Position numbers and translations under genes: made by a program. 64,000 nucleotides of DNA from Vicinamibacteria bacterium. Its GTDB lineage: Bacteria > Acidobacteriota > Vicinamibacteria > Vicinamibacterales > JAENWD01. The notes under the pieces are model-generated. The model was not told where the DNA came from, did not search any database, and saw nothing but the letters and a program-made list of their open reading frames with translations. The stretch is taken from NCBI GenBank assembly GCA_963837165.1, contig CAWIMD010000002.1, positions 184,143 to 248,142 of the forward strand. The letters are read 5' to 3'. This document shows, in pieces, positions 40,425-49,946 of this stretch (within the stretch, counting starts at the first letter, position 1; every line of letters starts with the position of its first letter).

Positions 40425-41417
40425 TCAGGCCGCCGAATGCGCCTTCGACGCCAGCTGCGCCAGCGCCTCGTAGTGCGTCCGTTCCTCCGCCGAGATCTCC
40501 CGGGGGAGCTGCACCTCGAGCGTGGCGTAGAGATCCCCGCGCTGCCCCGATTTCCCTGACAGGGCCAGGCCCTGGCCGCGCAGCCGGAAGACCTGGCTGT
40601 TCTGCGTCGTGGGCGGCACCTTGAGGCGGAGCGTCCGACCGCCGAGCGCCGGCACGCTGACCTCGCCGCCCAGCACCGCGACCGTGAGCGGCACGGTGAC
40701 CTTCGTGTACAGGTCCCGTCCCTTCCGCTCGAAGACCGGGTGGGGCAGCAGGTGCACGCGCAGGTACAGGTCGCCCGAGGTCGCGCCGCTCTCGCCCCGC
40801 TCGCCCTCGCCGCTCACGCGGACGCGGGAGCCGTCCCCGACGCCCGCCGGCACGCGCACGTCCACGGTCCGCGTGTGCCCGCCCTGCTTCATCGAGAGCC
40901 GGCGGGTGACGCCCTGGTCGGCTTCCTCCAGCGTGAGGTCAATCTCGTGTTCGAGGTCGCGGCCCTTGCGCGCGCGTCCCCGGCCGGTCTTCGCGCGGCG
41001 GGATGCGGCCTCGCCGCCCAACCCGCCGAAGAAGGTGTTGAAGAAGTCCGAGAACGGGTTGTCCGTCCCGAAGATCTCCTGCATCTCCTCCTCGGACATG
41101 GTCCGGAAGCCGCCCTGGCCGCCGCCCATGTTCACCGTCCAGGCGCCCTGCTCGAACGGGTTGGGGCCGCCGGTGCGCTGCGCCTGCTCGTAGGCCCGCC
41201 AGTTCGCGCCCAGCTCGTCGTATTTGGGCCGCTTCTCGGGGTCGCCGAGCACCTCGTAGGCCTCGTTGATCTCCTTGAAGCGCGCCTCGGCGGACTTGTC
41301 CCCCGGGTTGACGTCCGGGTGGTGCTTGCGCGCCAGCTTCCGGTACGCCTGCTTGATCTCCTTGTCCGTCGCCGTCTTGGCGACCCCGAGGGTGGCGTAG
41401 TAGTCCTTGAAGTCCAT
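40425..41417 (-). CDS. cbpA: DnaJ-class co-chaperone without a zinc finger (CbpA-like)
   Basis: J domain DYYATLGVAKTATDKEIKQAYRKLARKHHPDVNPGD, a G/F-ish linker and two C-terminal beta domains. No CxxCxGxG repeats. Confidence 0.88.
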   Translation of the reverse strand: MDFKDYYATLGVAKTATDKEIKQAYRKLARKHHPDVNPGDKSAEARFKEINEAYEVLGDPEKRPKYDELGANWRAYEQAQRTGGPNPFEQGAWTVNMGGGQGGFRTMSEEEMQEIFGTDNPFSDFFNTFFGGLGGEAASRRAKTGRGRARKGRDLEHEIDLTLEEADQGVTRRLSMKQGGHTRTVDVRVPAGVGDGSRVRVSGEGERGESGATSGDLYLRVHLLPHPVFERKGRDLYTKVTVPLTVAVLGGEVSVPALGGRTLRLKVPPTTQNSQVFRLRGQGLALSGKSGQRGDLYATLEVQLPREISAEERTHYEALAQLASKAHSAA

Positions 41418-41419
41418 GT

Positions 41420-41764
41420 CTACTGCCCCAGAATCCGGCTGAGCGCGTCCAGCTCGCGGGCGAGTTGCCGGCGCAGCTCTCCGCCGACGCCGGCGTCCTG
41501 GCCGACGAGCGGGCGGAGGCGCTCGACGACTTCGGCGATCGAGAGCAGCCGCTGTACGCCCGCGAGGTTGATGCCCGCTTCATCGACCAGGTGTTTGATC
41601 AGCCGGAGCCGCTCGAGCTCCTCCGCGCTGTACACCCGCATGCTGCCCAGCGTGCGTCCCGGCTGCACCAGGCCGAGCCGCTCGTATTTCCGGAGCGTCT
41701 GCGGGTGCATGCCCAGCAGGCGCGCCGCCACGCTGATCAGATACAAATCCTGAACCGGGGCCAT
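41420..41764 (-). CDS. hspR: MerR-family heat-shock repressor HspR-like
   Basis: Track ORF 41420..41923, start ATG 41764 (MAPVQDLYLISVAARLLGMHPQTLRKYERLGLVQPGRTLGSMRVYSAEELERLRLI). The stop lies 2 nt before the cbpA-like start. Confidence 0.82.
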   Translation of the reverse strand: MAPVQDLYLISVAARLLGMHPQTLRKYERLGLVQPGRTLGSMRVYSAEELERLRLIKHLVDEAGINLAGVQRLLSIAEVVERLRPLVGQDAGVGGELRRQLARELDALSRILGQ

Positions 41765-41785
41765 GGTCAATCTTGCGTCCCCACA

Positions 41786-41814
41786 AGTATAGGCATTGAT
41801 ACGACTCGTGTCAA
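41786..41814 (-). promoter_or_regulatory. hspR promoter TTGACA-17-TATACT overlapped by a 19-nt HAIR-like palindrome TTGACACGAGTCGTATCAA
   Basis: On the minus strand: TTGACA at 41814-41809, a 17-nt spacer, TATACT at 41791-41786. The palindrome at 41796-41814 matches its own reverse complement at 16 of 19 positions. It has the same 6-7-6 geometry as HAIR (CTTGAGT-N7-ACTCAAG). Confidence 0.5.
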
Positions 41815-41849
41815 CATGAGCCAGATCCGATGCGTCATACTCGGAGGAC

Positions 41850-42618
<769 letters not shown>

Positions 42619-42873
42619 TTACACCGCCTCAGGCGCAGCCGTCGCCGACAGCTGGCGGTCCAGCTCCGCCAGCGCCTCCTCGAGCATTCTCCGATGCGCG
42701 GGGCGGGTGGCCACCGCAAGGTCGGCCACTACGCGCGCGCGGGCCAGCAACACGTCGCGCCGGCGCGCCTCGGCTGCCAGGGCCGCGTCCGACAGCCGGC
42801 GCCCGGGATCCCCGGCCGACGCGGCGTCGGCCTGCTGCGACTCGATCGCTTTGCTCTCCCATCCTCGCGCCAT
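42619..42873 (-). CDS. Small conserved-looking hypothetical protein (84 aa, N-terminus MARGWESKAIESQQ)
   Basis: Track ORF. Helical, Arg/Ala-rich. I recall the N-terminal ARGWESK motif from hypothetical proteins, but I cannot name a family. Confidence 0.5.
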   Translation of the reverse strand: MARGWESKAIESQQADAASAGDPGRRLSDAALAAEARRRDVLLARARVVADLAVATRPAHRRMLEEALAELDRQLSATAAPEAV

Positions 42874-42877
42874 CAGT

Positions 42878-44333
<1,456 letters not shown>

Positions 44334-44370
44334 GCAGCGAGTATATCGGCTCGCCGCCGGCGTCAGCCGG

Positions 44371-45102
44371 TCAATCGGGGCTCGCGAGGAAGCGGTAGCC
44401 GACGCTGCGCACGGTGAGCAGATGACGCGGCTTGGAGGGGTCGTCCTCCAGGTATCGCCGCAGCCGCACGATGAAGTTGTCGATGGCCCGCGTGTCGGTG
44501 TCCTCCCGCACGCCCCAGACCTGCTCGAGGATCTGCTTGCGGGACACGACCTGACTCTCGTGCTGGACGAGGAACCGCAGCAGATTGGCTTCCATCAGCG
44601 TCAGCGGCAGCACGCGGTCGCCGCGACGGATCTCGAGGGCCCCGAAGTCGAGGTGTCGCCCGGCGAACGTGAACTCGTCCGGCCCGGCGGGCGGTGGTGC
44701 CGGCTCGGGCGCCCTCGGCGGGCTCGCGCCCCAGGAGTGGCGCCGCAGCAGCGCGCCAACTCGCGCGATGAGCACCGACAGCTCGAACGGTTTCGCCAGG
44801 TAGTCGTCGGCGCCCGCCTCGAATCCCCGCACCACGTCGGCGGCGTGCCCGCGGGCCGTCAGCATGAGGACGGGCAGGTACCGGCCCGTCTGGCGCAGCT
44901 GGCTGACGACGTCGAAGCCGTTGATGCCCGGCAGCATCACGTCGAGCACCACGAGATCCACTGGCTCGCCGTCGCCGAGCAGCCGGTCGAGCGCGGCCTC
45001 GCCGGTGTCGACGACCTCGGCATCGTGGCTCTCGGCCTCGAGGTTGAAGCGCAGGCCGTCCGCCAGGTGCTGTTCGTCTTCGACGACGAGAATGCGGCTC
45101 AT
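44371..45102 (-). CDS. OmpR/PhoB-family response regulator
   Basis: Track ORF 44371..45546, start ATG 45102 (MSRILVVEDEQHLADGL...VVLDVMLPGINGF...). C-terminal winged helix LTVRSVGYRF. Confidence 0.9.
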   Translation of the reverse strand: MSRILVVEDEQHLADGLRFNLEAESHDAEVVDTGEAALDRLLGDGEPVDLVVLDVMLPGINGFDVVSQLRQTGRYLPVLMLTARGHAADVVRGFEAGADDYLAKPFELSVLIARVGALLRRHSWGASPPRAPEPAPPPAGPDEFTFAGRHLDFGALEIRRGDRVLPLTLMEANLLRFLVQHESQVVSRKQILEQVWGVREDTDTRAIDNFIVRLRRYLEDDPSKPRHLLTVRSVGYRFLASPD

Positions 45103-46007
45103 GTCTGCGGCGCGCCCGGCAGCTGCAGCGTGAACGTGCTCCCGTGTCCCGGGCCGGCGCTCTCGGCGAACACGCGGCCGCCGTGCTTGCGCGCCACCGA
45201 CGAGACGATGAACAGGCCGAGGCCCGTGCCCTTGACGCGCATGGCCACGGCCTCCGGGATCCGGTAGAACCGGCGGAAGATCCGCTTGAGCTCGCGCTCC
45301 GAGATGCCGATGCCGCGGTCGCGGACGCGCACCGCCAGCCGGTGGTCGTCGAGGCCGGCCAGCTCCACCTCGACGTGCACCTCGGTGCCCGAGTACTTGA
45401 TGGCGTTGTCGAGCAGGTTCGACACGGCGGCCTTGAGCTCGTCCGGATCGCCGAGCACGGTCGCGTCGATCGGGCTCGGGACGTGATCCACGTACGCCAG
45501 CGACTCGGCGGGAAGGTGGTGCCGGACGCGCGCGACCTCCAGGCACTCTTCGACCAGCGCCCGCAGGTCCACCGGTGCGCGGTGCCGCATCTGCGTGCGC
45601 GCGCTCGTCCGCCCGGCGCGCAGCACCTGTTCGATGAGGTGCAGCAGCCGATCGCTGTCGTCGATCATCACCCGGTAGAACTCGCGGCGCTTCTCCTCGG
45701 GCAGCTCCCGCCGCTCGAGGGTTTCCAGGTACAGGCGGATCGAGGCGACCGGCGTCTTGAGCTCGTGCGTCACGGCGTTGATGAACGCGTCGTGCTGCTC
45801 GCTGCGCCGCACCTCGCGCACCAGGAAGATGGTGTTCAGGACGACGCCGGTGATGATGACCGGGAAGAAGATGATGCCGAGGGCCAGCAGGAGACCCTCG
45901 CGCCAGTTGACGACGATCCAGCTGACGTTGAGAGCCACCGCCAGGGCGACCAGCGCCGCGCCGAGGGTCGCGTAGACCGCCGACTTGCGCTTCGGGCCCG
46001 GAATCAT
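45099..46007 (-). CDS. Sensor histidine kinase with two TM helices and essentially no external loop
   Basis: TM1 AVYATLGAALVALAVALNVSWIV, loop VNWREG, TM2 LLLALGIIFFPVIITGVVLNTIFLV. H-box AVTHELKTPVASI, N/G boxes LLDNAIKYS and GTGLGLFIV. 4-nt overlap with the regulator gene. Confidence 0.9.
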   Translation of the reverse strand: MIPGPKRKSAVYATLGAALVALAVALNVSWIVVNWREGLLLALGIIFFPVIITGVVLNTIFLVREVRRSEQHDAFINAVTHELKTPVASIRLYLETLERRELPEEKRREFYRVMIDDSDRLLHLIEQVLRAGRTSARTQMRHRAPVDLRALVEECLEVARVRHHLPAESLAYVDHVPSPIDATVLGDPDELKAAVSNLLDNAIKYSGTEVHVEVELAGLDDHRLAVRVRDRGIGISERELKRIFRRFYRIPEAVAMRVKGTGLGLFIVSSVARKHGGRVFAESAGPGHGSTFTLQLPGAPQT

Positions 46008-46030
46008 GTGGCTAGGATGCCACAGAGGGT

Positions 46031-46073
46031 GGGTCTATGGGTTGATGGGTTGATGGGTTGACGGGTTCTTGGG
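46031..46073. repeat. Tandem octamer array (GGGTTGAT-like) x5
   Basis: gggtctat gggttgat gggttgat gggttgac gggttctt ggg. Lies between the desaturase stop (46078) and the kinase start (46007). Confidence 0.85.
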
Positions 46074-46077
46074 AGAG

Positions 46078-46950
46078 CTATGCGGCTTCCCGTTCCTGGC
46101 CCGGCCGCCGGCCGTCCACGTCCACCACCCGCACGCGCTCGGCGATGCCGATCCGCTGCAGCAGATTGATCTGGATCCAGGTGAGGTCGAGCTCGTACCA
46201 GGCCAGGCCGTGACGGGCCGACGTGGGGTGGGCGTGGTGGTTGTTGTGCCAGCCCTCGCCGAAGGTCAGGAGGGCGACCCACCAGCTGTTCTTCGAGTCG
46301 TCCTTCGTCTCGAACCGGCGCGAACCCCACATGTGGGTGGCCGAGTTCACGAGCCATGTGGCGTGGAGGCCGACAGTCACGCGGAAGAACACCAGCCACA
46401 AGACCATCGGCCAGCCGCCCAGGGCAAGCACGGCGAAGCCAAAGACCGTCAGGGGCACCCAGTGCCAGGTGTTGAGCCACAGGTAGAACGGGTCCGCGGC
46501 CAGGTCGGGCGCGTAGCGCGACATGAGGGCCGTGTCGTTGTGGTGCCCTTCCCCGAAGAGGATCCAGCCCATGTGCGCCCAGAAGCCGCCGTGATGCGGC
46601 GTGTGGGGATCGGAATCGGTATCTGAGTGCTGGTGGTGGAGGCGATGCGTCGCGACCCAGAAGATGGGACCGCCTTCGAGCGTGAGCGCACCACAGATGG
46701 CGAAGAAGTACTCGAGCAGCTTCGGGACCCGGTACGACCGGTGCGTGTGCAGCCGGTGATAGCCCATCCCGATGCCGAGGCCGATGCACATCCAGTAGAA
46801 GAACGCCGTCAGGGCCACGGCCGGCCAGGAGACGAAGAACAACGCCGCCACGGCTCCCACGTGGAACGCGGACATCGCGACGAAGGTAATCCAGTTGATC
46901 GTGCTGTACCGGTCTCGCCGTGCCGGATACAGGGTCGTGTCAATGCTCAC
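46078..46950 (-). CDS. Acyl-CoA/acyl-lipid delta-9-type fatty acid desaturase
   Basis: Three His boxes: HRLHTHRS, HRLHHQHSD and HNNHHAHP. Four TM helices. Confidence 0.9.
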   Translation of the reverse strand: MSIDTTLYPARRDRYSTINWITFVAMSAFHVGAVAALFFVSWPAVALTAFFYWMCIGLGIGMGYHRLHTHRSYRVPKLLEYFFAICGALTLEGGPIFWVATHRLHHQHSDTDSDPHTPHHGGFWAHMGWILFGEGHHNDTALMSRYAPDLAADPFYLWLNTWHWVPLTVFGFAVLALGGWPMVLWLVFFRVTVGLHATWLVNSATHMWGSRRFETKDDSKNSWWVALLTFGEGWHNNHHAHPTSARHGLAWYELDLTWIQINLLQRIGIAERVRVVDVDGRRPGQEREAA

Positions 46951-47022
46951 TCACGGTCTCCAGTCCCGCCTGTTCATCGGCCCACAGGCATCCCCACAGT
47001 AGCAACCGGGGCCGTCCAGGTG

Positions 47023-47081
47023 TGTAAGAGTTGTGTAACCACTCGATCGGCGGGCCCCTGGGTTTGTAAGACTTTTGTCAC
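47023..47081 (+). promoter_or_regulatory. Two PhoB-box-like sites, each a direct repeat with 11-bp phasing: TGTAAGagttgTGTAAC and TGTAAGactttTGTCAC
   Basis: Box 1 at 47023-47039 and box 2 at 47065-47081, with starts 42 bp apart. They lie 73-131 nt upstream of the desaturase ATG on the opposite strand, and 142-200 nt upstream of the PAS kinase start. Confidence 0.4.
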
Positions 47082-47222
47082 CGCGCTTCGGAGGGGACTC
47101 GCGGGCGGGCATGCAGCCCTCCTGGAGCCGTCGTCAGTTCCTGCTGGACCTGTTGCTGGACGGCGAGGAGGCTCCCGAGTACCTGCCCAAGCTCTTCCTT
47201 TGAGGTCCGTGCCGAATTCCTC

Positions 47223-49946
47223 GTGAGGCGGCGGAGGCGGCCGATCTTCGCGTATGCTGGCGCTGCTCCACCTGGCCGGCATGTCGTGACATCAGCGCTC
47301 GACCTGGCAGCCGCCCTCGATTCCCTGCCAGACGGTCTGGCCATCCTGGACCGTCAGGGCAGGTTGCGGTTTGCCAACGCGACCCTGCGACACCTGCTGA
47401 CCGATCCCGCCTCGGGACCGTTGATTGGCCGTGTGCTATGGGACGTGGCGCCCGGCACCGATCGACGGGCGCTCGACTCGGTGCTCGCCGCCGACGCCGC
47501 GTCATCCCCGCGCACGCACCAGGTCGGCCGCCTCGAGCGCCTCGGACGCCGGCTCGACATCCAGGCGACCCCTCTCGCCGACGGGGCCGTGATCACCGTG
47601 CGCGAGGACGCCGCCAGCCGTCTGCCGGACCCCACGACACCGCCGATCCTCGACCGCGTCGAGCTGGCCCTGGCCGCCAGCCTCGAGGGCCTCTGGTGGT
47701 GGGATCTGGCGAACGGGACCTTGTGGGTCTCGGCCCACTACGCGGAAATGCTGGGTGAGCGTCCCGAGGCGTATGAGGCCAGCTATCAGCGCTACGCCGA
47801 GCGCATCCATCCCGAGGACCGCCCGCGCGTGGAGGCCGTCCTGGCCGATCACGCCGCCCGCGGGCGACCATACCGCGCCGAGTACCGGATCCGCCGCTGT
47901 GACGGCGCCTGGCGCTGGCACGTGACGCGTGGCGCCTCCGTCAGGGACGCGTCGGGCGCCGTCGTGCGAATGGCCGGCACCACGAGCGACGTCACGGAGT
48001 GGCGCGAGGCCGAGGAGGCGCTGCGCGAGAGCGAGGCCCGGTTCCGCATTCTCGCGGCCAGCGCGCCGCTCGGCATCTTCCTGGCCAACGCGTCGGGACG
48101 GGTCGTGTACGCGAACCCGCGGCTGCTCGAGATGTTCACCGCCGGCTACGAGCAGATGCTCGACGGCACGTTCGTCGGCCGGATCCACCCCGAGGATCGC
48201 GCGAAGGTCGAGGCCAGCTGGGCCGAGGCCGTCCGCGCCGTCTCGGAGAGCGTCCAGCGCTACCGGCTGGTGCGCGACGATCGCCGCGTCCTCTGGGTGG
48301 AAGGCCGCACGGCGCCGATACGCAACGAGAACCGGCAGGTCATCGGGCACATCGGCCTCGTCCATGACGTCACCGAGCAGCGCGAGGCGGAGCTCGCGCT
48401 CGAGACCAGCGAGAACCGCTTCCGGACACTGGCCGAGGAGTCCCCGATCGGCATCTATCAGATCGACAATGCCGGTACGCTCCTGTACCTGAACCGGGGG
48501 GCGCAACGCATCCTGGGCATCCGGCCCGAGGACAAGCCGTCGGAGTTCTTCTCCCGCGTCCACCCCGACGATCGGTCGATCGTCCACGAGCGGCGCCGGC
48601 GCCTGCTCGATCCGGCATTGATGCGGGAGGTGGAGTTCCGCCTCACGAATCCCGACGGGAGCCTTCGCTGGATCCGGGCGAGGGCGGCGGTCATCAGCGG
48701 TCCGGACGGCCGCGCCACCGGGCGCATCGGCACGCTCGAAGACATCACCGCGTCGCGGGCCGCCGAAACGGCACGCCGCGAAATCGAGTCCCGGATCCAG
48801 CACGCGCAGAAGCTCGAGAGCCTCGGCGTGCTCGCCGGGGGCATCGCGCACGACTTCAACAACCTGCTGGTAGGCATCCTGGGCAACGCCAACCTCGCGA
48901 TGCTGGATCTGCCGGGCGACTCGCCGGCCCACGAGGCGGTCCTCCAGATCCAGGCCGCGGCGGAACGCTCCGCGGACCTGACGCGGCAGCTGCTCGCCTA
49001 CGCGGGCAAGGGCCAGTTCGAGATCCGTCGCGTGCAGGTCTCACGGCTCGTCAGCGACGTGCTGCCGCTGCTCCAGGCCGCCCTCTCCAAGCGGGTGGAG
49101 CTTCGGCACGAGTTCGCGCCCACGCTGCCCGACGTCGACGGCGATCCCGCGCAGCTCACGCAGGTGGTCATGAACCTGCTCACCAACGCGTCGGATGCCA
49201 TCGGCGACCGGACCGGCGTCGTCTCGATCCGCACCTTTGTGCGTACGCTCGCCAGGCCGGAGCTGGCGCCGATGTCCCTCGGGGCCGAGCTTCCGGCGGG
49301 CGACTACGTCGGCCTGGAGGTCGAGGACACCGGGGCGGGCATGGACCAGGCCACTCTCGATCGCATCTTCGAGCCGTTCTTCACGACGAAGTTCACCGGT
49401 CGCGGCCTCGGCCTCGCCGCCGTGCTGGGAATCGTGCGCAGCCATCGGGGGGCGCTGAGCGTGCGGTCGGCGCCGGGGGCGGGCACCACGTTCGGCATCT
49501 GGCTGCCGGTGCGGCAGGGCGTCATCGAGGCGCCCGCGCACATCGGCCGCGACATTGCCGTTCCGATCGCCACAGGGCTCGTGCTCGTCGCCGACGATGA
49601 GCCGTCCGTGCGGCAGGTCACGCGCAAGTTCCTGGAACGCTGGGGCTACGAGGTGATGGAAGCCGCCGACGGGCTCGAGGCGCTCGCCACGGTCCAACGG
49701 GAGGCCGGCCGGCTGCGCCTGGTGCTGCTCGACATCACGATGCCCAGGAAGGACGGCGTCGAGGCGTTTCGCGAGCTGCGGCAGCTGAACCGGACGCTGC
49801 CCGTCGTGCTCATGAGCGGGTTCACCGAGCAGGCGGCGGCCACCGATCTCGGGCGCTTCGACCGCGCGTACTTCATCCAGAAACCATTCAAGGGAGAGGA
49901 CCTCCGTCGGGTAGTATCAGAGGCGATTCACGGTTCGGGAGACTGA
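47223..49946 (+). CDS. Multi-PAS hybrid sensor histidine kinase with a C-terminal receiver
   Basis: 907-aa ORF. About 4 PAS/PAC units (e.g. YRAEYRIRRCDGAWRW, RYRLVRDDRRVLWVEG, EFRLTNPDGSLRWIRA). H-box GGIAHDFNNLL, G-boxes EDTGAGM and GRGLGLA, receiver LVLLDITMPRKDG. The start is uncertain. Confidence 0.85.
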   Translation: MRRRRRPIFAYAGAAPPGRHVVTSALDLAAALDSLPDGLAILDRQGRLRFANATLRHLLTDPASGPLIGRVLWDVAPGTDRRALDSVLAADAASSPRTHQVGRLERLGRRLDIQATPLADGAVITVREDAASRLPDPTTPPILDRVELALAASLEGLWWWDLANGTLWVSAHYAEMLGERPEAYEASYQRYAERIHPEDRPRVEAVLADHAARGRPYRAEYRIRRCDGAWRWHVTRGASVRDASGAVVRMAGTTSDVTEWREAEEALRESEARFRILAASAPLGIFLANASGRVVYANPRLLEMFTAGYEQMLDGTFVGRIHPEDRAKVEASWAEAVRAVSESVQRYRLVRDDRRVLWVEGRTAPIRNENRQVIGHIGLVHDVTEQREAELALETSENRFRTLAEESPIGIYQIDNAGTLLYLNRGAQRILGIRPEDKPSEFFSRVHPDDRSIVHERRRRLLDPALMREVEFRLTNPDGSLRWIRARAAVISGPDGRATGRIGTLEDITASRAAETARREIESRIQHAQKLESLGVLAGGIAHDFNNLLVGILGNANLAMLDLPGDSPAHEAVLQIQAAAERSADLTRQLLAYAGKGQFEIRRVQVSRLVSDVLPLLQAALSKRVELRHEFAPTLPDVDGDPAQLTQVVMNLLTNASDAIGDRTGVVSIRTFVRTLARPELAPMSLGAELPAGDYVGLEVEDTGAGMDQATLDRIFEPFFTTKFTGRGLGLAAVLGIVRSHRGALSVRSAPGAGTTFGIWLPVRQGVIEAPAHIGRDIAVPIATGLVLVADDEPSVRQVTRKFLERWGYEVMEAADGLEALATVQREAGRLRLVLLDITMPRKDGVEAFRELRQLNRTLPVVLMSGFTEQAAATDLGRFDRAYFIQKPFKGEDLRRVVSEAIHGSGD

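What the first reader, a model, noticed from the sequence alone, without database searches (positions are those of the whole stretch)
44371..47081. Desaturase + loop-less intramembrane histidine kinase + OmpR-type regulator, with PhoB-box-like direct repeats upstream
The delta-9-type desaturase (46950-46078), the kinase (46007-45099) and the regulator (45102-44371) are co-oriented, and the kinase and regulator genes overlap by 4 nt. The kinase has two TM helices joined by about 6 residues (VNWREG) and no extracytoplasmic or PAS/HAMP-like input that I can see, so any signal must be read within the membrane. This is conceptually like DesK, although the DesK/DesR pair is NarL-type and this regulator is OmpR-type.

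Upstream of the desaturase lie two sites, TGTAAGagttgTGTAAC (47023-47039) and TGTAAGactttTGTCAC (47065-47081). Each is a direct repeat with exact 11-bp phasing, and the two sites are 42 bp (four helical turns) apart. That is the geometry used by OmpR/PhoB winged-helix regulators.

My inference is that this is a membrane-state (fluidity or temperature) feedback circuit controlling desaturase expression.
Basis: partly seen in the sequence, partly recalled or inferred. Interest (0 to 1): 0.58.

Follow-up and report, generated by a model that had tools for sequence, protein, structure and literature searches.

The report
Acidobacterial desaturase control circuit with conserved operator
A membrane fatty-acid desaturase gene sits next to a sensor kinase that has only a membrane hairpin as input and an OmpR-type regulator. 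A strictly conserved regulator-type DNA box lies in the desaturase promoter across the soil phylum Acidobacteriota. This looks like an independently evolved counterpart of the Bacillus DesK/DesR membrane-fluidity thermostat.

Summary
The three co-oriented genes, the 4-nt kinase/regulator overlap, the two-helix kinase with no input domain, and both 11-bp-phased boxes are all where stated.

Comparative evidence makes the regulatory wiring strong.
- In 53 of 62 related acidobacterial loci the desaturase lies directly upstream of the kinase-regulator pair.
- Only these three genes are conserved across classes.
- All 53 desaturase upstream regions examined (52 related loci and the window) have a TTACA-N6-TTACA box matching at least 9 of 10 core positions (consensus mTTACAnAAsTmTTACA).
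- In 51 of 53 the box lies exactly 18 nt before an extended -10 (TGnTAnnnT), centred near -41.5 from the inferred start. That is a class-II activator position.
- The box occurs nowhere else in the window or in the 80 loci.
- In a motif-first metagenome scan it sits in front of a desaturase in 44 of 46 GC-rich contigs.
- The boxes therefore belong to the desaturase promoter, not to the PAS kinase.

The kinase's membrane hairpin and juxtamembrane linker are as conserved as its catalytic core, or more so.

Not shown: that this regulator binds the box, that it activates, or that the signal is membrane fluidity or temperature.

Verdict: a new OmpR/HisKA-type variant of the DesK/DesR logic. I found no published description of it.

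The parts
46078..46950 (-). Membrane fatty-acid desaturase, SCD/delta-9 type, 290 aa. It is the regulated target gene.
   Evidence: PF00487, 1.9e-19. Aligns to SCD1 (4ymk), 7e-32, with the His boxes HRLHTH, HRLHH and HNNHH in register. A homologue lies directly upstream of the kinase in 53 of 62 loci.
45099..46007 (-). Histidine kinase, 302 aa: a two-TM hairpin, then HisKA and HATPase_c, with no HAMP or PAS domain.
   Evidence: Pfam. All NCBIfam equivalogs score below their cut-offs. Relatives are 59-78% identical across the loci recovered from acidobacterial classes. AF2 model.
45819..45974 (-). Coding region for the TM1-NWREG-TM2 hairpin (residues 12-63). This is the putative sensor.
   Evidence: Hydropathy and conservation. 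Invariant or near-invariant residues include N27, W30, N34, W35, R36, G44, F48, G54, N58 and T59. The linker 64-72 (REIRRNEQH) is the most conserved segment of the protein (consensus fraction 0.98). The 72-residue N-terminal segment (hairpin plus linker) is found at or near the N-terminus of proteins of at most 362 aa.
44371..45102 (-). OmpR-family response regulator, 243 aa. Its start overlaps the kinase stop by 4 nt.
   Evidence: PF00072 plus PF00486. Nearest solved structures are RegX3 and MtrA. The recognition-helix region EDTDTRAIDNFIVRLR is at least 95% conserved at nearly every position across 76 orthologues.
47023..47039 (-). Proximal regulator box. On the gene strand it reads GTTACAcaactCTTACA. 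This is the universal box.
   Evidence: All 53 desaturase upstream regions examined have a box matching at least 9 of 10 core positions. There is a fixed 18-nt gap to TGnTAnnnT in 51 of 53. The box is absent elsewhere in the window and in the 80 loci.
47065..47081 (-). Distal regulator box. On the gene strand it reads GTGACAaaagtCTTACA. It lies 42 bp upstream of the proximal box.
   Evidence: A second box at 42-43 bp is found in the window and in L001-L003. At other spacings (20-39 bp) it occurs in 6 further loci, and it is absent from most.
46996..47004 (-). Predicted extended -10 of the desaturase promoter (TG-c-TACTGT). The inferred start site is near 46989.
   Evidence: Conserved TGnTAnnnT at a fixed distance from the box, while the distance to the start codon varies from 47 to 135 nt. 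No canonical -35/-10 pair was found. The start site is inferred, not mapped.
46014..46022 (-). Predicted extended -10 (TG-g-CATCCT), ending 6 nt before the kinase ATG. It suggests a separate promoter for kinase and regulator that gives a leaderless mRNA.
   Evidence: A -10-like hexamer (TACAAT, TAAAAT, TATCCT and similar) ends 6-7 nt before the ATG in most loci, by eye, including loci that lack the desaturase. Inference only.

Best explanation
This is a self-contained three-gene lipid-homeostasis module that is widespread in Acidobacteriota.

Proposed mechanism:
1. The kinase is anchored by a two-helix hairpin with essentially no outside loop. Its second helix runs straight into the phospho-acceptor helix.
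2. The kinase reads a property of the bilayer itself, such as order, thickness or fluidity, as set by temperature and acyl-chain saturation.
3. When the membrane is too ordered, the kinase phosphorylates the OmpR-type regulator.
4. A regulator dimer binds the 11-bp-phased direct repeat mTTACA-nAAsT-mTTACA, centred near -41.5 in a promoter that has an extended -10 but no -35.
5. The bound regulator recruits RNA polymerase and switches on the delta-9-type desaturase.
6. The resulting unsaturated lipids fluidise the membrane and switch the kinase back to its phosphatase state.

What is shown here:
- The gene linkage.
- The conserved operator and its fixed position relative to a conserved -10-like element.
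- The association of the operator with desaturase genes and with nothing else.
- The absence of any other input domain.
- The strong conservation of the hairpin and the linker.

What is inferred:
- That this regulator binds the box.
- That it activates transcription.
- What the signal is.
For: Linkage:
- The desaturase lies directly upstream and co-oriented in 53 of 62 loci with enough flank. A regulator homologue was found downstream of the kinase in 79 of the 80 loci; L060 ends 153 nt after the kinase.
- Only these three genes recur across classes.

Operator:
- The box is present in all 53 upstream regions examined, which are otherwise unalignable.
- TGnTAnnnT starts exactly 18 nt after the box in 51 of 53.
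- There are no other copies in the window (0.02 expected) or in about 590 kb of the 80 loci.
- In the motif-first metagenome scan, 43 of 46 GC-rich contigs have this desaturase directly downstream. One more has a different FA_desaturase. Among AT-rich contigs, which are chance hits, the figure is 1 of 60.

Site type:
- An 11-bp direct repeat of TGTAAk has the geometry of the WalR site TGTWAH-N5-TGTWAH (PMC4168254).
- The half-site is that of the RpaB site (G/T)TTACA(T/A)(T/A) (PMC6525291). Both proteins are OmpR-family regulators.
- The regulator's recognition helix is nearly invariant across 76 orthologues, matching the invariant half-site.

Sensor:
- There is no input domain.
- The consensus fraction is 0.80-0.83 for the TM hairpin and 0.98 for the linker, against 0.80 for the catalytic domain and 0.54 for the DHp-CA linker.
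- AF2 shows a continuous helix from TM2 into DHp.
- The module is always at or near the N-terminus of short kinases.

Precedent for the logic: DesK/DesR/des (PMC8534201).
Against: - There is no expression, binding or biochemical data.
- The start site is inferred from a consensus. The simple sigma-70 scan found no canonical promoter, and acidobacterial promoters are poorly characterised.
- A site spanning -49 to -34 could in principle repress.
- Many intramembrane-sensing kinases do not sense by themselves but relay a signal from a partner protein (Mascher 2014, as summarised in PMC8534201).
- Nine of 62 kinase-regulator loci lack an adjacent desaturase and carry no box within 4 kb. The pair can therefore work in trans, or might have other targets.
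- AF2 confidence is only moderate and is low in the juxtamembrane linker.
Confidence: 0.55

Rival explanations
1. The wiring is the same: the regulator controls the desaturase through the box. However, the kinase is a signal-transfer kinase that does not sense the bilayer itself. It reads a partner membrane protein, most plausibly the desaturase (its occupancy, activity or electron flux), in the way BceS reads the BceAB transporter.
For: The two-TM, short-loop architecture is that of the Bce/Lia-type intramembrane-sensing kinases, which depend on accessory proteins (PMC8534201). The only conserved membrane-protein neighbour is the desaturase. The conserved polar residues in the hairpin (N27, N34, N58, T59) could form a protein-protein interface.
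Against: Three of 18 box-bearing desaturases have no kinase nearby, and 9 of 62 kinase-regulator loci have no desaturase nearby. This loose linkage is less typical of obligate sensory complexes. There is no ABC transporter or LiaF-like gene in the loci.
Confidence: 0.17
2. The module controls the desaturase, but it responds to a cue other than membrane order. Candidates are pH or ionic conditions at the juxtamembrane linker, oxygen or redox state (the desaturase needs O2 and reductant), or general envelope stress.
For: The most conserved segment is the charged cytoplasmic linker REIRRNEQH. In DesK the corresponding linker senses pH (PMC8534201). Nothing in the sequence specifies temperature.
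Against: There is no cofactor-binding or redox domain. The output, as far as found, is desaturase genes only. That is what a lipid-order homeostat predicts and is a narrow output for a general stress system.
Confidence: 0.15
3. The box is bound by a different OmpR-family regulator encoded elsewhere, and the adjacent two-component system has another target. The adjacency would then be historical.
For: There is no direct binding evidence. The box is absent from the kinase-regulator promoter region. Some box-bearing desaturases stand alone (L085, L151, L182).
Against: The linkage is conserved across at least three classes at 54-90% desaturase identity, while all other neighbours change. 15 of 18 box-bearing desaturases found by the motif alone are followed by this kinase. 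The near-invariant recognition helix matches the invariant half-site.
Confidence: 0.08
4. The boxes belong to the promoter of the divergently transcribed PAS hybrid kinase (47223-49946, +).
For: They lie in the shared intergenic region, about 140 bp from the longest-ORF start of that gene.
Against: The PAS kinase is upstream only in the window, in L006 and in L201, the ENA contig that encodes an identical kinase. The box accompanies the desaturase in all classes, always on the desaturase coding strand and at a fixed distance from a -10-like element that faces the desaturase.
Confidence: 0.01

Closest known systems
DesK-DesR-des thermosensor circuit of Bacillus subtilis
   Same: A membrane kinase with no extracytoplasmic domain, whose last TM helix continues directly into the phospho-acceptor helix. 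It sits next to the membrane desaturase gene it is thought to control, and the gene order is the same (desaturase, kinase, regulator; gene order from my own knowledge). The predicted homeoviscous feedback logic is also the same (PMC8534201).
   Different: The kinase is of the HisKA family (PF00512), not HisKA_3, and has 2 TM helices rather than 5. The regulator is OmpR/winged-helix type, not NarL/LuxR type. The desaturase is SCD/delta-9 type, not delta-5 Des. The operator is an 11-bp direct repeat of TTACA. The phylum is Acidobacteriota, not Bacillota. The resemblance is therefore analogous and most likely convergent, not homologous.
Hik33 (NblS/DspA)-RpaB (Rre26) of cyanobacteria and the HLR1 element
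   Same: The regulator is OmpR-type and recognises a direct repeat with the same TTACA core. Upstream sites activate and sites near the start site repress (PMC6525291). Hik33 is proposed to perceive cold-induced membrane rigidification (PMC3264485).
   Different: From my own knowledge, Hik33 has a periplasmic loop plus HAMP and PAS domains. It is not linked to a desaturase gene, and RpaB is a global regulator with more than 150 target promoters. The HLR1 period is 10 bp (8-nt repeats plus 2 nt), against 11 bp here. The regulator here scores 156 bits against the RpaB model, whose cut-off is 330.
Intramembrane-sensing histidine kinases of the BceS/LiaS type (Mascher)
   Same: Two TM helices joined by a very short loop, no cytoplasmic input domain, a small protein of about 300 aa, and, for BceS, an OmpR-type partner (from my own knowledge).
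   Different: Those kinases respond to cell-envelope antibiotics through an ABC transporter or LiaF. No such genes are conserved here. The conserved neighbour is a desaturase.
WalR (and, from my own knowledge, Bacillus PhoP) binding sites
   Same: [quoted passage not shown] Family members with TGTAAT half-sites match it exactly.
   Different: The regulator is not WalR (163.6 bits against a cut-off of 340). The spacer here is itself conserved (nAAsTm). The only targets found are desaturase genes.

Membership tests
DesK/DesR two-component thermosensor | Kinase of the HisKA_3 (HPK7) type with 4-5 TM helices | tested here: not met
   Pfam finds HisKA (PF00512), not HisKA_3. Hydropathy gives two peaks, and AF2 gives two TM helices.
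DesK/DesR two-component thermosensor | Regulator of the NarL/LuxR (GerE helix-turn-helix) type | tested here: not met
   The regulator has Trans_reg_C (PF00486), that is an OmpR-type winged helix.
DesK/DesR two-component thermosensor | Kinase/phosphatase balance set by membrane thickness, order or temperature | not testable with these tools
   This needs liposome reconstitution or in vivo reporter assays.
DesK/DesR two-component thermosensor | Controls an adjacent membrane desaturase gene | tested here: inconclusive
   Adjacency is conserved (53 of 62 loci) and there is a conserved operator in the desaturase promoter. Control itself has not been demonstrated. The desaturase is SCD-like, not delta-5 Des.
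Intramembrane-sensing histidine kinase (architectural class) | Two TM helices with a very short extracytoplasmic linker and no other input domain | tested here: met
   The loop is NWREG, about 4-6 residues. Only HisKA and HATPase_c are found. AF2 gives helix 6-33, a break at residue 34, and helix 35-99.
BceS-like subgroup of intramembrane-sensing kinases | Genetic and functional association with a BceAB-type ABC transporter | tested here: not met
   No transporter family recurs among the 80 loci. Only the desaturase, the kinase and the regulator are conserved across classes.
OmpR/PhoB family response regulator | Receiver domain plus a C-terminal winged-helix Trans_reg_C domain | tested here: met
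   PF00072 (2.2e-26) and PF00486 (2.4e-23). No NCBIfam equivalog (MtrA, OmpR, PhoB, YycF, RpaB and others) reaches its cut-off.
SCD-type (delta-9) membrane fatty-acid desaturase | Three histidine boxes (HxxxxH, HxxHH, HxxHH) on the SCD scaffold | tested here: met
   Alignment to SCD1 (4ymk), E=7e-32. HRLHTH, HRLHH and HNNHH align with HRLWSH, HRAHH and HNYHH. Regiospecificity and substrate (acyl-CoA or acyl-lipid) are not testable here.
RpaB/HLR1 regulon | Two 8-nt repeats (G/T)TTACA(T/A)(T/A) separated by 2 nt (10-bp period), and a regulator that is an RpaB equivalog | tested here: not met
   The period here is 11 bp. The RpaB model scores 156 bits against a cut-off of 330.

The most novel reading that the evidence does not exclude
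Acidobacteriota have independently evolved a minimal membrane-order sensor. It consists of a two-helix hairpin fused directly to a HisKA kinase, and it works with an OmpR-type regulator and a defined operator to set desaturase expression. It would be a natural equivalent of the engineered 'minimal sensor DesK', conserved across a major soil phylum. A more unusual variant is that the kinase uses the desaturase itself as a co-sensor.
Probability: 0.5. Interest if true: 0.72.

Novelty: new variant of a known kind. Interest (0 to 1): 0.62.

Why it matters
Only one bacterial two-component system, DesK/DesR, is understood in mechanistic detail as a sensor of membrane thickness and fluidity, and it belongs to a different kinase and regulator family. 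A second, unrelated and much simpler design that reaches the same output would show which features of bilayer sensing are general. Here that design is two TM helices, no HAMP domain, and a nearly invariant polar pattern and charged linker.

It would also give a compact sensor for engineering. And it would explain how abundant but poorly studied soil Acidobacteriota adjust their membranes to temperature swings.

The conserved operator and promoter architecture make the hypothesis directly testable. They also provide a rare well-supported promoter and operator model for this phylum.

Tried and rejected
- **Canonical sigma-70 promoter and intrinsic terminator scan of 44200-47300**. It found no promoter, and the only terminator-like hits were inside coding sequence. 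The promoter model therefore rests on the conserved TGnTAnnnT element.
- **Further boxes.** I searched the window and all 80 loci, including the 9 kinase-regulator loci that lack a desaturase. None were found, so there is no evidence for autoregulation or for a wider regulon in the sequence sampled.
- **PAS-kinase promoter hypothesis.** Rejected, because that gene is not a conserved neighbour.
- **Named two-component systems.** PhoR, PnpS, WalK, SenX3, MtrAB, RpaB and others all score far below the NCBIfam cut-offs. The 'SenX3' label in JGI records is only a generic KEGG-style assignment.
- **The 8-codon uORF in the window's leader (46977-46951).** It is not conserved in relatives and is treated as chance.
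- **An alternative reading of TTGCTA as a -35 hexamer.** No conserved -10 follows it at 16-18 nt, so this was rejected in favour of the extended -10 reading.
- **Literature searches** for an acidobacterial or OmpR-type desaturase-controlling two-component system. Nothing was found in the library held; subscription papers are not covered.
- **AlphaFold2 of the kinase monomer**. Confidence is moderate only. I used it only for helix continuity, not for mechanism.
Full report
**1. Observation**

- The minus strand carries three consecutive ORFs: 46950-46078 (290 aa), 46007-45099 (302 aa) and 45102-44371 (243 aa).
- The last two overlap by 4 nt.
- Pfam assigns them FA_desaturase; HisKA plus HATPase_c with nothing else; and Response_reg plus Trans_reg_C.
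- No NCBIfam equivalog for a named kinase or regulator reaches its cut-off.
- The desaturase aligns to mammalian stearoyl-CoA desaturase SCD1 (4ymk, E=7e-32) with its three histidine boxes in register. 'Delta-9-type' is therefore a fair description of the family, although regiospecificity cannot be read from sequence.
- The boxes TGTAAGagttgTGTAAC (47023-47039) and TGTAAGactttTGTCAC (47065-47081) are exact.
- They are the only two matches in 64 kb, against 0.03 expected by chance.

**2. Source and relatives**

- An identical kinase is encoded on ENA metagenome contigs with the same neighbours.
- The kinase has very many close relatives in soil metagenomes, 75-100% identical and of the same length.
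- A scan of species-representative genomes returned 80 loci. Nearly all are labelled Acidobacteriota: Vicinamibacteria, Bryobacterales, Pyrinomonadaceae/Blastocatellia and Chloracidobacterium. Kinase identity is 59-78%.
- Two loci labelled Acidimicrobiia and Nevskia look like mis-binned contigs.
- The window itself most resembles Vicinamibacteria.

**3. Is the linkage conserved?**

Yes.
- Of 62 loci with more than 1.1 kb upstream of the kinase, 53 have a homologue of this desaturase (54-90% identity) directly upstream on the same strand.
- A regulator homologue lies downstream of the kinase in 79 of the 80 loci. The exception, L060, ends 153 nt after the kinase.
- Clustering all ORFs of the 80 loci shows that only these three genes recur across classes. 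Every other neighbour is clade-specific.
- The PAS hybrid kinase that is divergent from the desaturase in the window is present only in L006 and in the ENA contig that encodes an identical kinase.

**4. Are the boxes real?**

This is the strongest result.
- On the desaturase coding strand the boxes read (A/C)TTACA-n-AA(C/G)T-(A/C)TTACA.
- All 53 desaturase upstream regions examined (52 related loci plus the window) contain such a box with at least 9 of 10 core positions matching. These regions are otherwise unalignable.
- When the regions are anchored on the box, a second conserved element appears: TGnTAnnnT, the signature of an extended -10. It starts exactly 18 nt after the box in 51 of 53 regions.
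- By contrast, the distance from the box to the start codon ranges from 47 to 135 nt.
- The box is thus locked to a promoter element that faces the desaturase. This excludes the PAS-kinase promoter reading.
- With the -10 hexamer placed at -12 to -7, the box spans about -49 to -34, with its centre at -41.5. There is no -35 hexamer.
- That is the classical arrangement in which an activator replaces -35 recognition (class II; PhoB is the textbook OmpR-family example). This last step rests on established knowledge and inference, because no start site has been mapped. The simple sigma-70 scan finds no canonical promoter here.
- In the window the extended -10 is at 47004-46996 and the inferred start is near 46989.

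**5. Specificity of the box**

- The consensus occurs nowhere else in the window.
- It occurs nowhere else in the 80 loci, about 590 kb in total. That includes the nine kinase-regulator loci that lack an adjacent desaturase.
- As a test that does not depend on how the loci were chosen, I scanned the metagenome collection for the bare motif MTTACANAASTMTTACAA (120 loci).
- The hits fall into two groups:
  - Contigs with G+C below 0.5 look like chance matches in AT-rich genomes. One of 60 has a desaturase downstream.
  - Among contigs with G+C of at least 0.5 and at least 300 nt of room, 43 of 46 have a homologue of this desaturase directly downstream on the same strand.
- One of the three exceptions (L166) has a different type of FA_desaturase downstream.
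- L197, L160 and L154 carry the box in front of divergent desaturase paralogues.
- Of 18 box-bearing desaturases with at least 1.5 kb of downstream sequence, 15 are followed by the kinase. Three (L085, L151, L182) stand alone.
- The element therefore marks desaturase promoters. It usually, but not always, lies in cis to the two-component system.

**6. What kind of site is it?**

- It shares the TTACA core of the cyanobacterial RpaB site HLR1, (G/T)TTACA(T/A)(T/A) with 2 nt between repeats (PMC6525291). From my own knowledge it also resembles Bacillus PhoP boxes.
- It resembles these more than the E. coli PhoB box.
- All of these proteins are OmpR-family regulators. This supports the assignment to an OmpR-type protein, but the regulator here is not an equivalog of any of them.
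- Its predicted recognition helix region (EDTDTRAIDNFIVRLR) is at least 95% conserved at nearly every position in 76 orthologues, in keeping with an invariant half-site.
- The distal box, 42-43 bp upstream (four helical turns), is shared by the window and by L001-L003. L004 has a weaker copy at about the same place.
- Elsewhere a second box is absent or lies at 20-39 bp. It is therefore an accessory site.

**7. The sensor**

- The kinase N-terminus is very strongly conserved.
- It runs as follows: a basic tail; TM1 (..LG.CLVALA.ALNVGWI.L); the loop NWRE; TM2 (..LLV.GI.FF..II.G.VLNT.FL); and the linker REIRRNEQHDAF, which leads straight into the H-box (THELKTP).
- There is no room for a HAMP domain. 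The phospho-acceptor histidine is about 17 residues beyond the membrane.
- Consensus fractions by region:

| Region | Consensus fraction |
|---|---|
| TM hairpin | 0.80-0.83 |
| Linker 64-72 | 0.98 |
| DHp | 0.84 |
| DHp-CA connector | 0.54 |
| Catalytic domain | 0.80 |

- A mere membrane anchor would not be conserved like this.
- AlphaFold2 predicts helix 6-33, a single-residue break, and one continuous helix 35-99. Mean pLDDT is 69 and confidence in the linker is low, so I use the model only for topology.
- A profile-free search of 1.84 billion representative proteins with the first 72 residues finds 353 clusters. In the 150 listed, the module lies at or near the N-terminus of proteins no longer than 362 aa, about half to three quarters identical to the query over the matched stretch.
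- The module is therefore never combined with another sensor domain.

**8. Mechanism proposed**

- The shown parts are the wiring and the lack of any input other than the membrane hairpin.
- The inferred part follows the DesK paradigm (PMC8534201). An over-ordered or thick bilayer favours the kinase state. The phosphorylated regulator dimer binds at -41.5 and activates the desaturase promoter. Unsaturation then restores fluidity and resets the kinase.
- I put about 0.8 on 'this regulator controls the desaturase through the box'.
- I put about 0.55 on the full statement, which includes membrane order as the signal.

**9. Rivals**

- The kinase may be a signal-transfer kinase that reads a partner protein, most plausibly the desaturase, as in Bce-type systems (0.17).
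- The cue may be pH, redox state, O2 or envelope stress, read at the charged linker (0.15).
- Another regulator may bind the box (0.08).
- The PAS-kinase promoter reading is essentially excluded.

**10. Further architecture noticed**

- In most loci, by eye, including those without a desaturase, a -10-like hexamer ends 6-7 nt before the kinase ATG. Examples are TACAAT and TAAAAT. In Vicinamibacteria it is TG-n-CATCCT, at 46022-46014 in the window.
- This suggests that the kinase-regulator pair has its own promoter and a leaderless mRNA. It has no box, so the sensor is probably expressed independently of its output.
- The window has no terminator between the desaturase and the kinase, so read-through is also possible.

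**11. Comparison and novelty**

- Functionally this is closest to DesK/DesR/des, and even the gene order is the same.
- It fails every homology-based membership test for that family. The kinase is HisKA rather than HisKA_3, with 2 TM helices rather than 5. The regulator is OmpR-type rather than NarL-type. The desaturase is SCD-type rather than delta-5 Des.
- Architecturally the kinase belongs to the intramembrane-sensing class, but it lacks the transporter partner of Bce-type members.
- The operator shares its core with RpaB/HLR1 but differs in period, and the regulator is not RpaB.
- Three literature searches found no description of this acidobacterial system or of an OmpR-type desaturase-controlling two-component system. 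The library lacks most subscription papers.
- I rate it a new variant of a known kind. The regulatory logic is known. The components are new, apparently convergent, and conserved across several classes of the phylum, and there is an unusually clean operator and promoter model.

**12. Verdict**

- Interest is 0.62. It is not a surprise in principle, but it is a well-defined, directly testable second solution to bilayer sensing in an abundant and under-studied phylum.

Noticed in passing
window 46014-46022 (-), and the 20 nt upstream of the kinase ATG in L001-L080: A -10-like hexamer (TACAAT, TAAAAT or TAGAAT; TG-n-CATCCT or TATCCT in Vicinamibacteria) ends 6-7 nt before the kinase start codon in most loci, by eye, including those without a desaturase. 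This suggests a separate promoter and a leaderless kinase-regulator mRNA.
   Followed up: partly
window 46037-46067; desaturase-kinase spacers of L002, L003, L020, L029, L038, L062, L072 and others: The spacer between desaturase and kinase is rich in short tandem repeats. In the window the period is 8 with 3.9 copies (CAACCCAT on the gene strand). Other loci have different units, and some have long inverted repeats that could act as terminators. Spacer length ranges from 5 to 1809 nt.
   Followed up: no
window 46973-46981 (-); columns about +10 to +17 of the anchored alignment: A weakly conserved element lies in the predicted desaturase 5' leader. It reads GCCGATGAA in Vicinamibacteria and CATCnAA in Pyrinomonadaceae. 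Its function is unknown. In the window it starts an 8-codon uORF (46977-46951) that is not conserved.
   Followed up: partly
L166:1179-2345 (-); L197:11008-12132 (+); L160:321-1325 (-); L154:3-575 (-): The same box sits upstream of other fatty-acid desaturase types. These are a 388-aa desaturase not detectably similar to the window's enzyme in the tblastn screen (L166) and divergent delta-9-like paralogues at 32-34% identity. The regulon may therefore cover several desaturases in some genomes. L197 has a different OmpR-type system with a larger kinase nearby.
   Followed up: partly
L151:3406-5268: A stand-alone box-bearing desaturase is followed directly by a gene with a Pfam Acyl_transf_1 domain, which by eye looks like FabD (malonyl-CoA:ACP transacylase). 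No kinase or regulator lies within 8.7 kb.
   Followed up: no
window 47223-49946 (+); L201:1-1527: The start of the divergent PAS hybrid kinase (four PAS folds, HisKA, HATPase, receiver) is uncertain. The longest ORF starts at 47223. The ENA gene calls on the contig that encodes an identical kinase (L201) split it into a 140-aa gene and a 658-aa gene.
   Followed up: no
L017 and L077: These loci are labelled 'Acidimicrobiia' and 'Nevskia soli'. They carry the acidobacterial module at 61-65% identity, with the box, and are probably mis-binned or contaminant contigs.
   Followed up: no
window 40425-44333: The neighbouring genes are an ORF that by eye looks like DnaJ (40425-41417, -), a small ORF that by eye resembles MerR/HspR regulators directly upstream of it (41420-41923, -), a TerC-family membrane protein (41850-42551, +) and glucuronate isomerase UxaC (42930-44333, -). 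UxaC downstream of the regulator is conserved only within Vicinamibacteria. TerC and UxaC are Pfam assignments; the first two were not searched.
   Followed up: no
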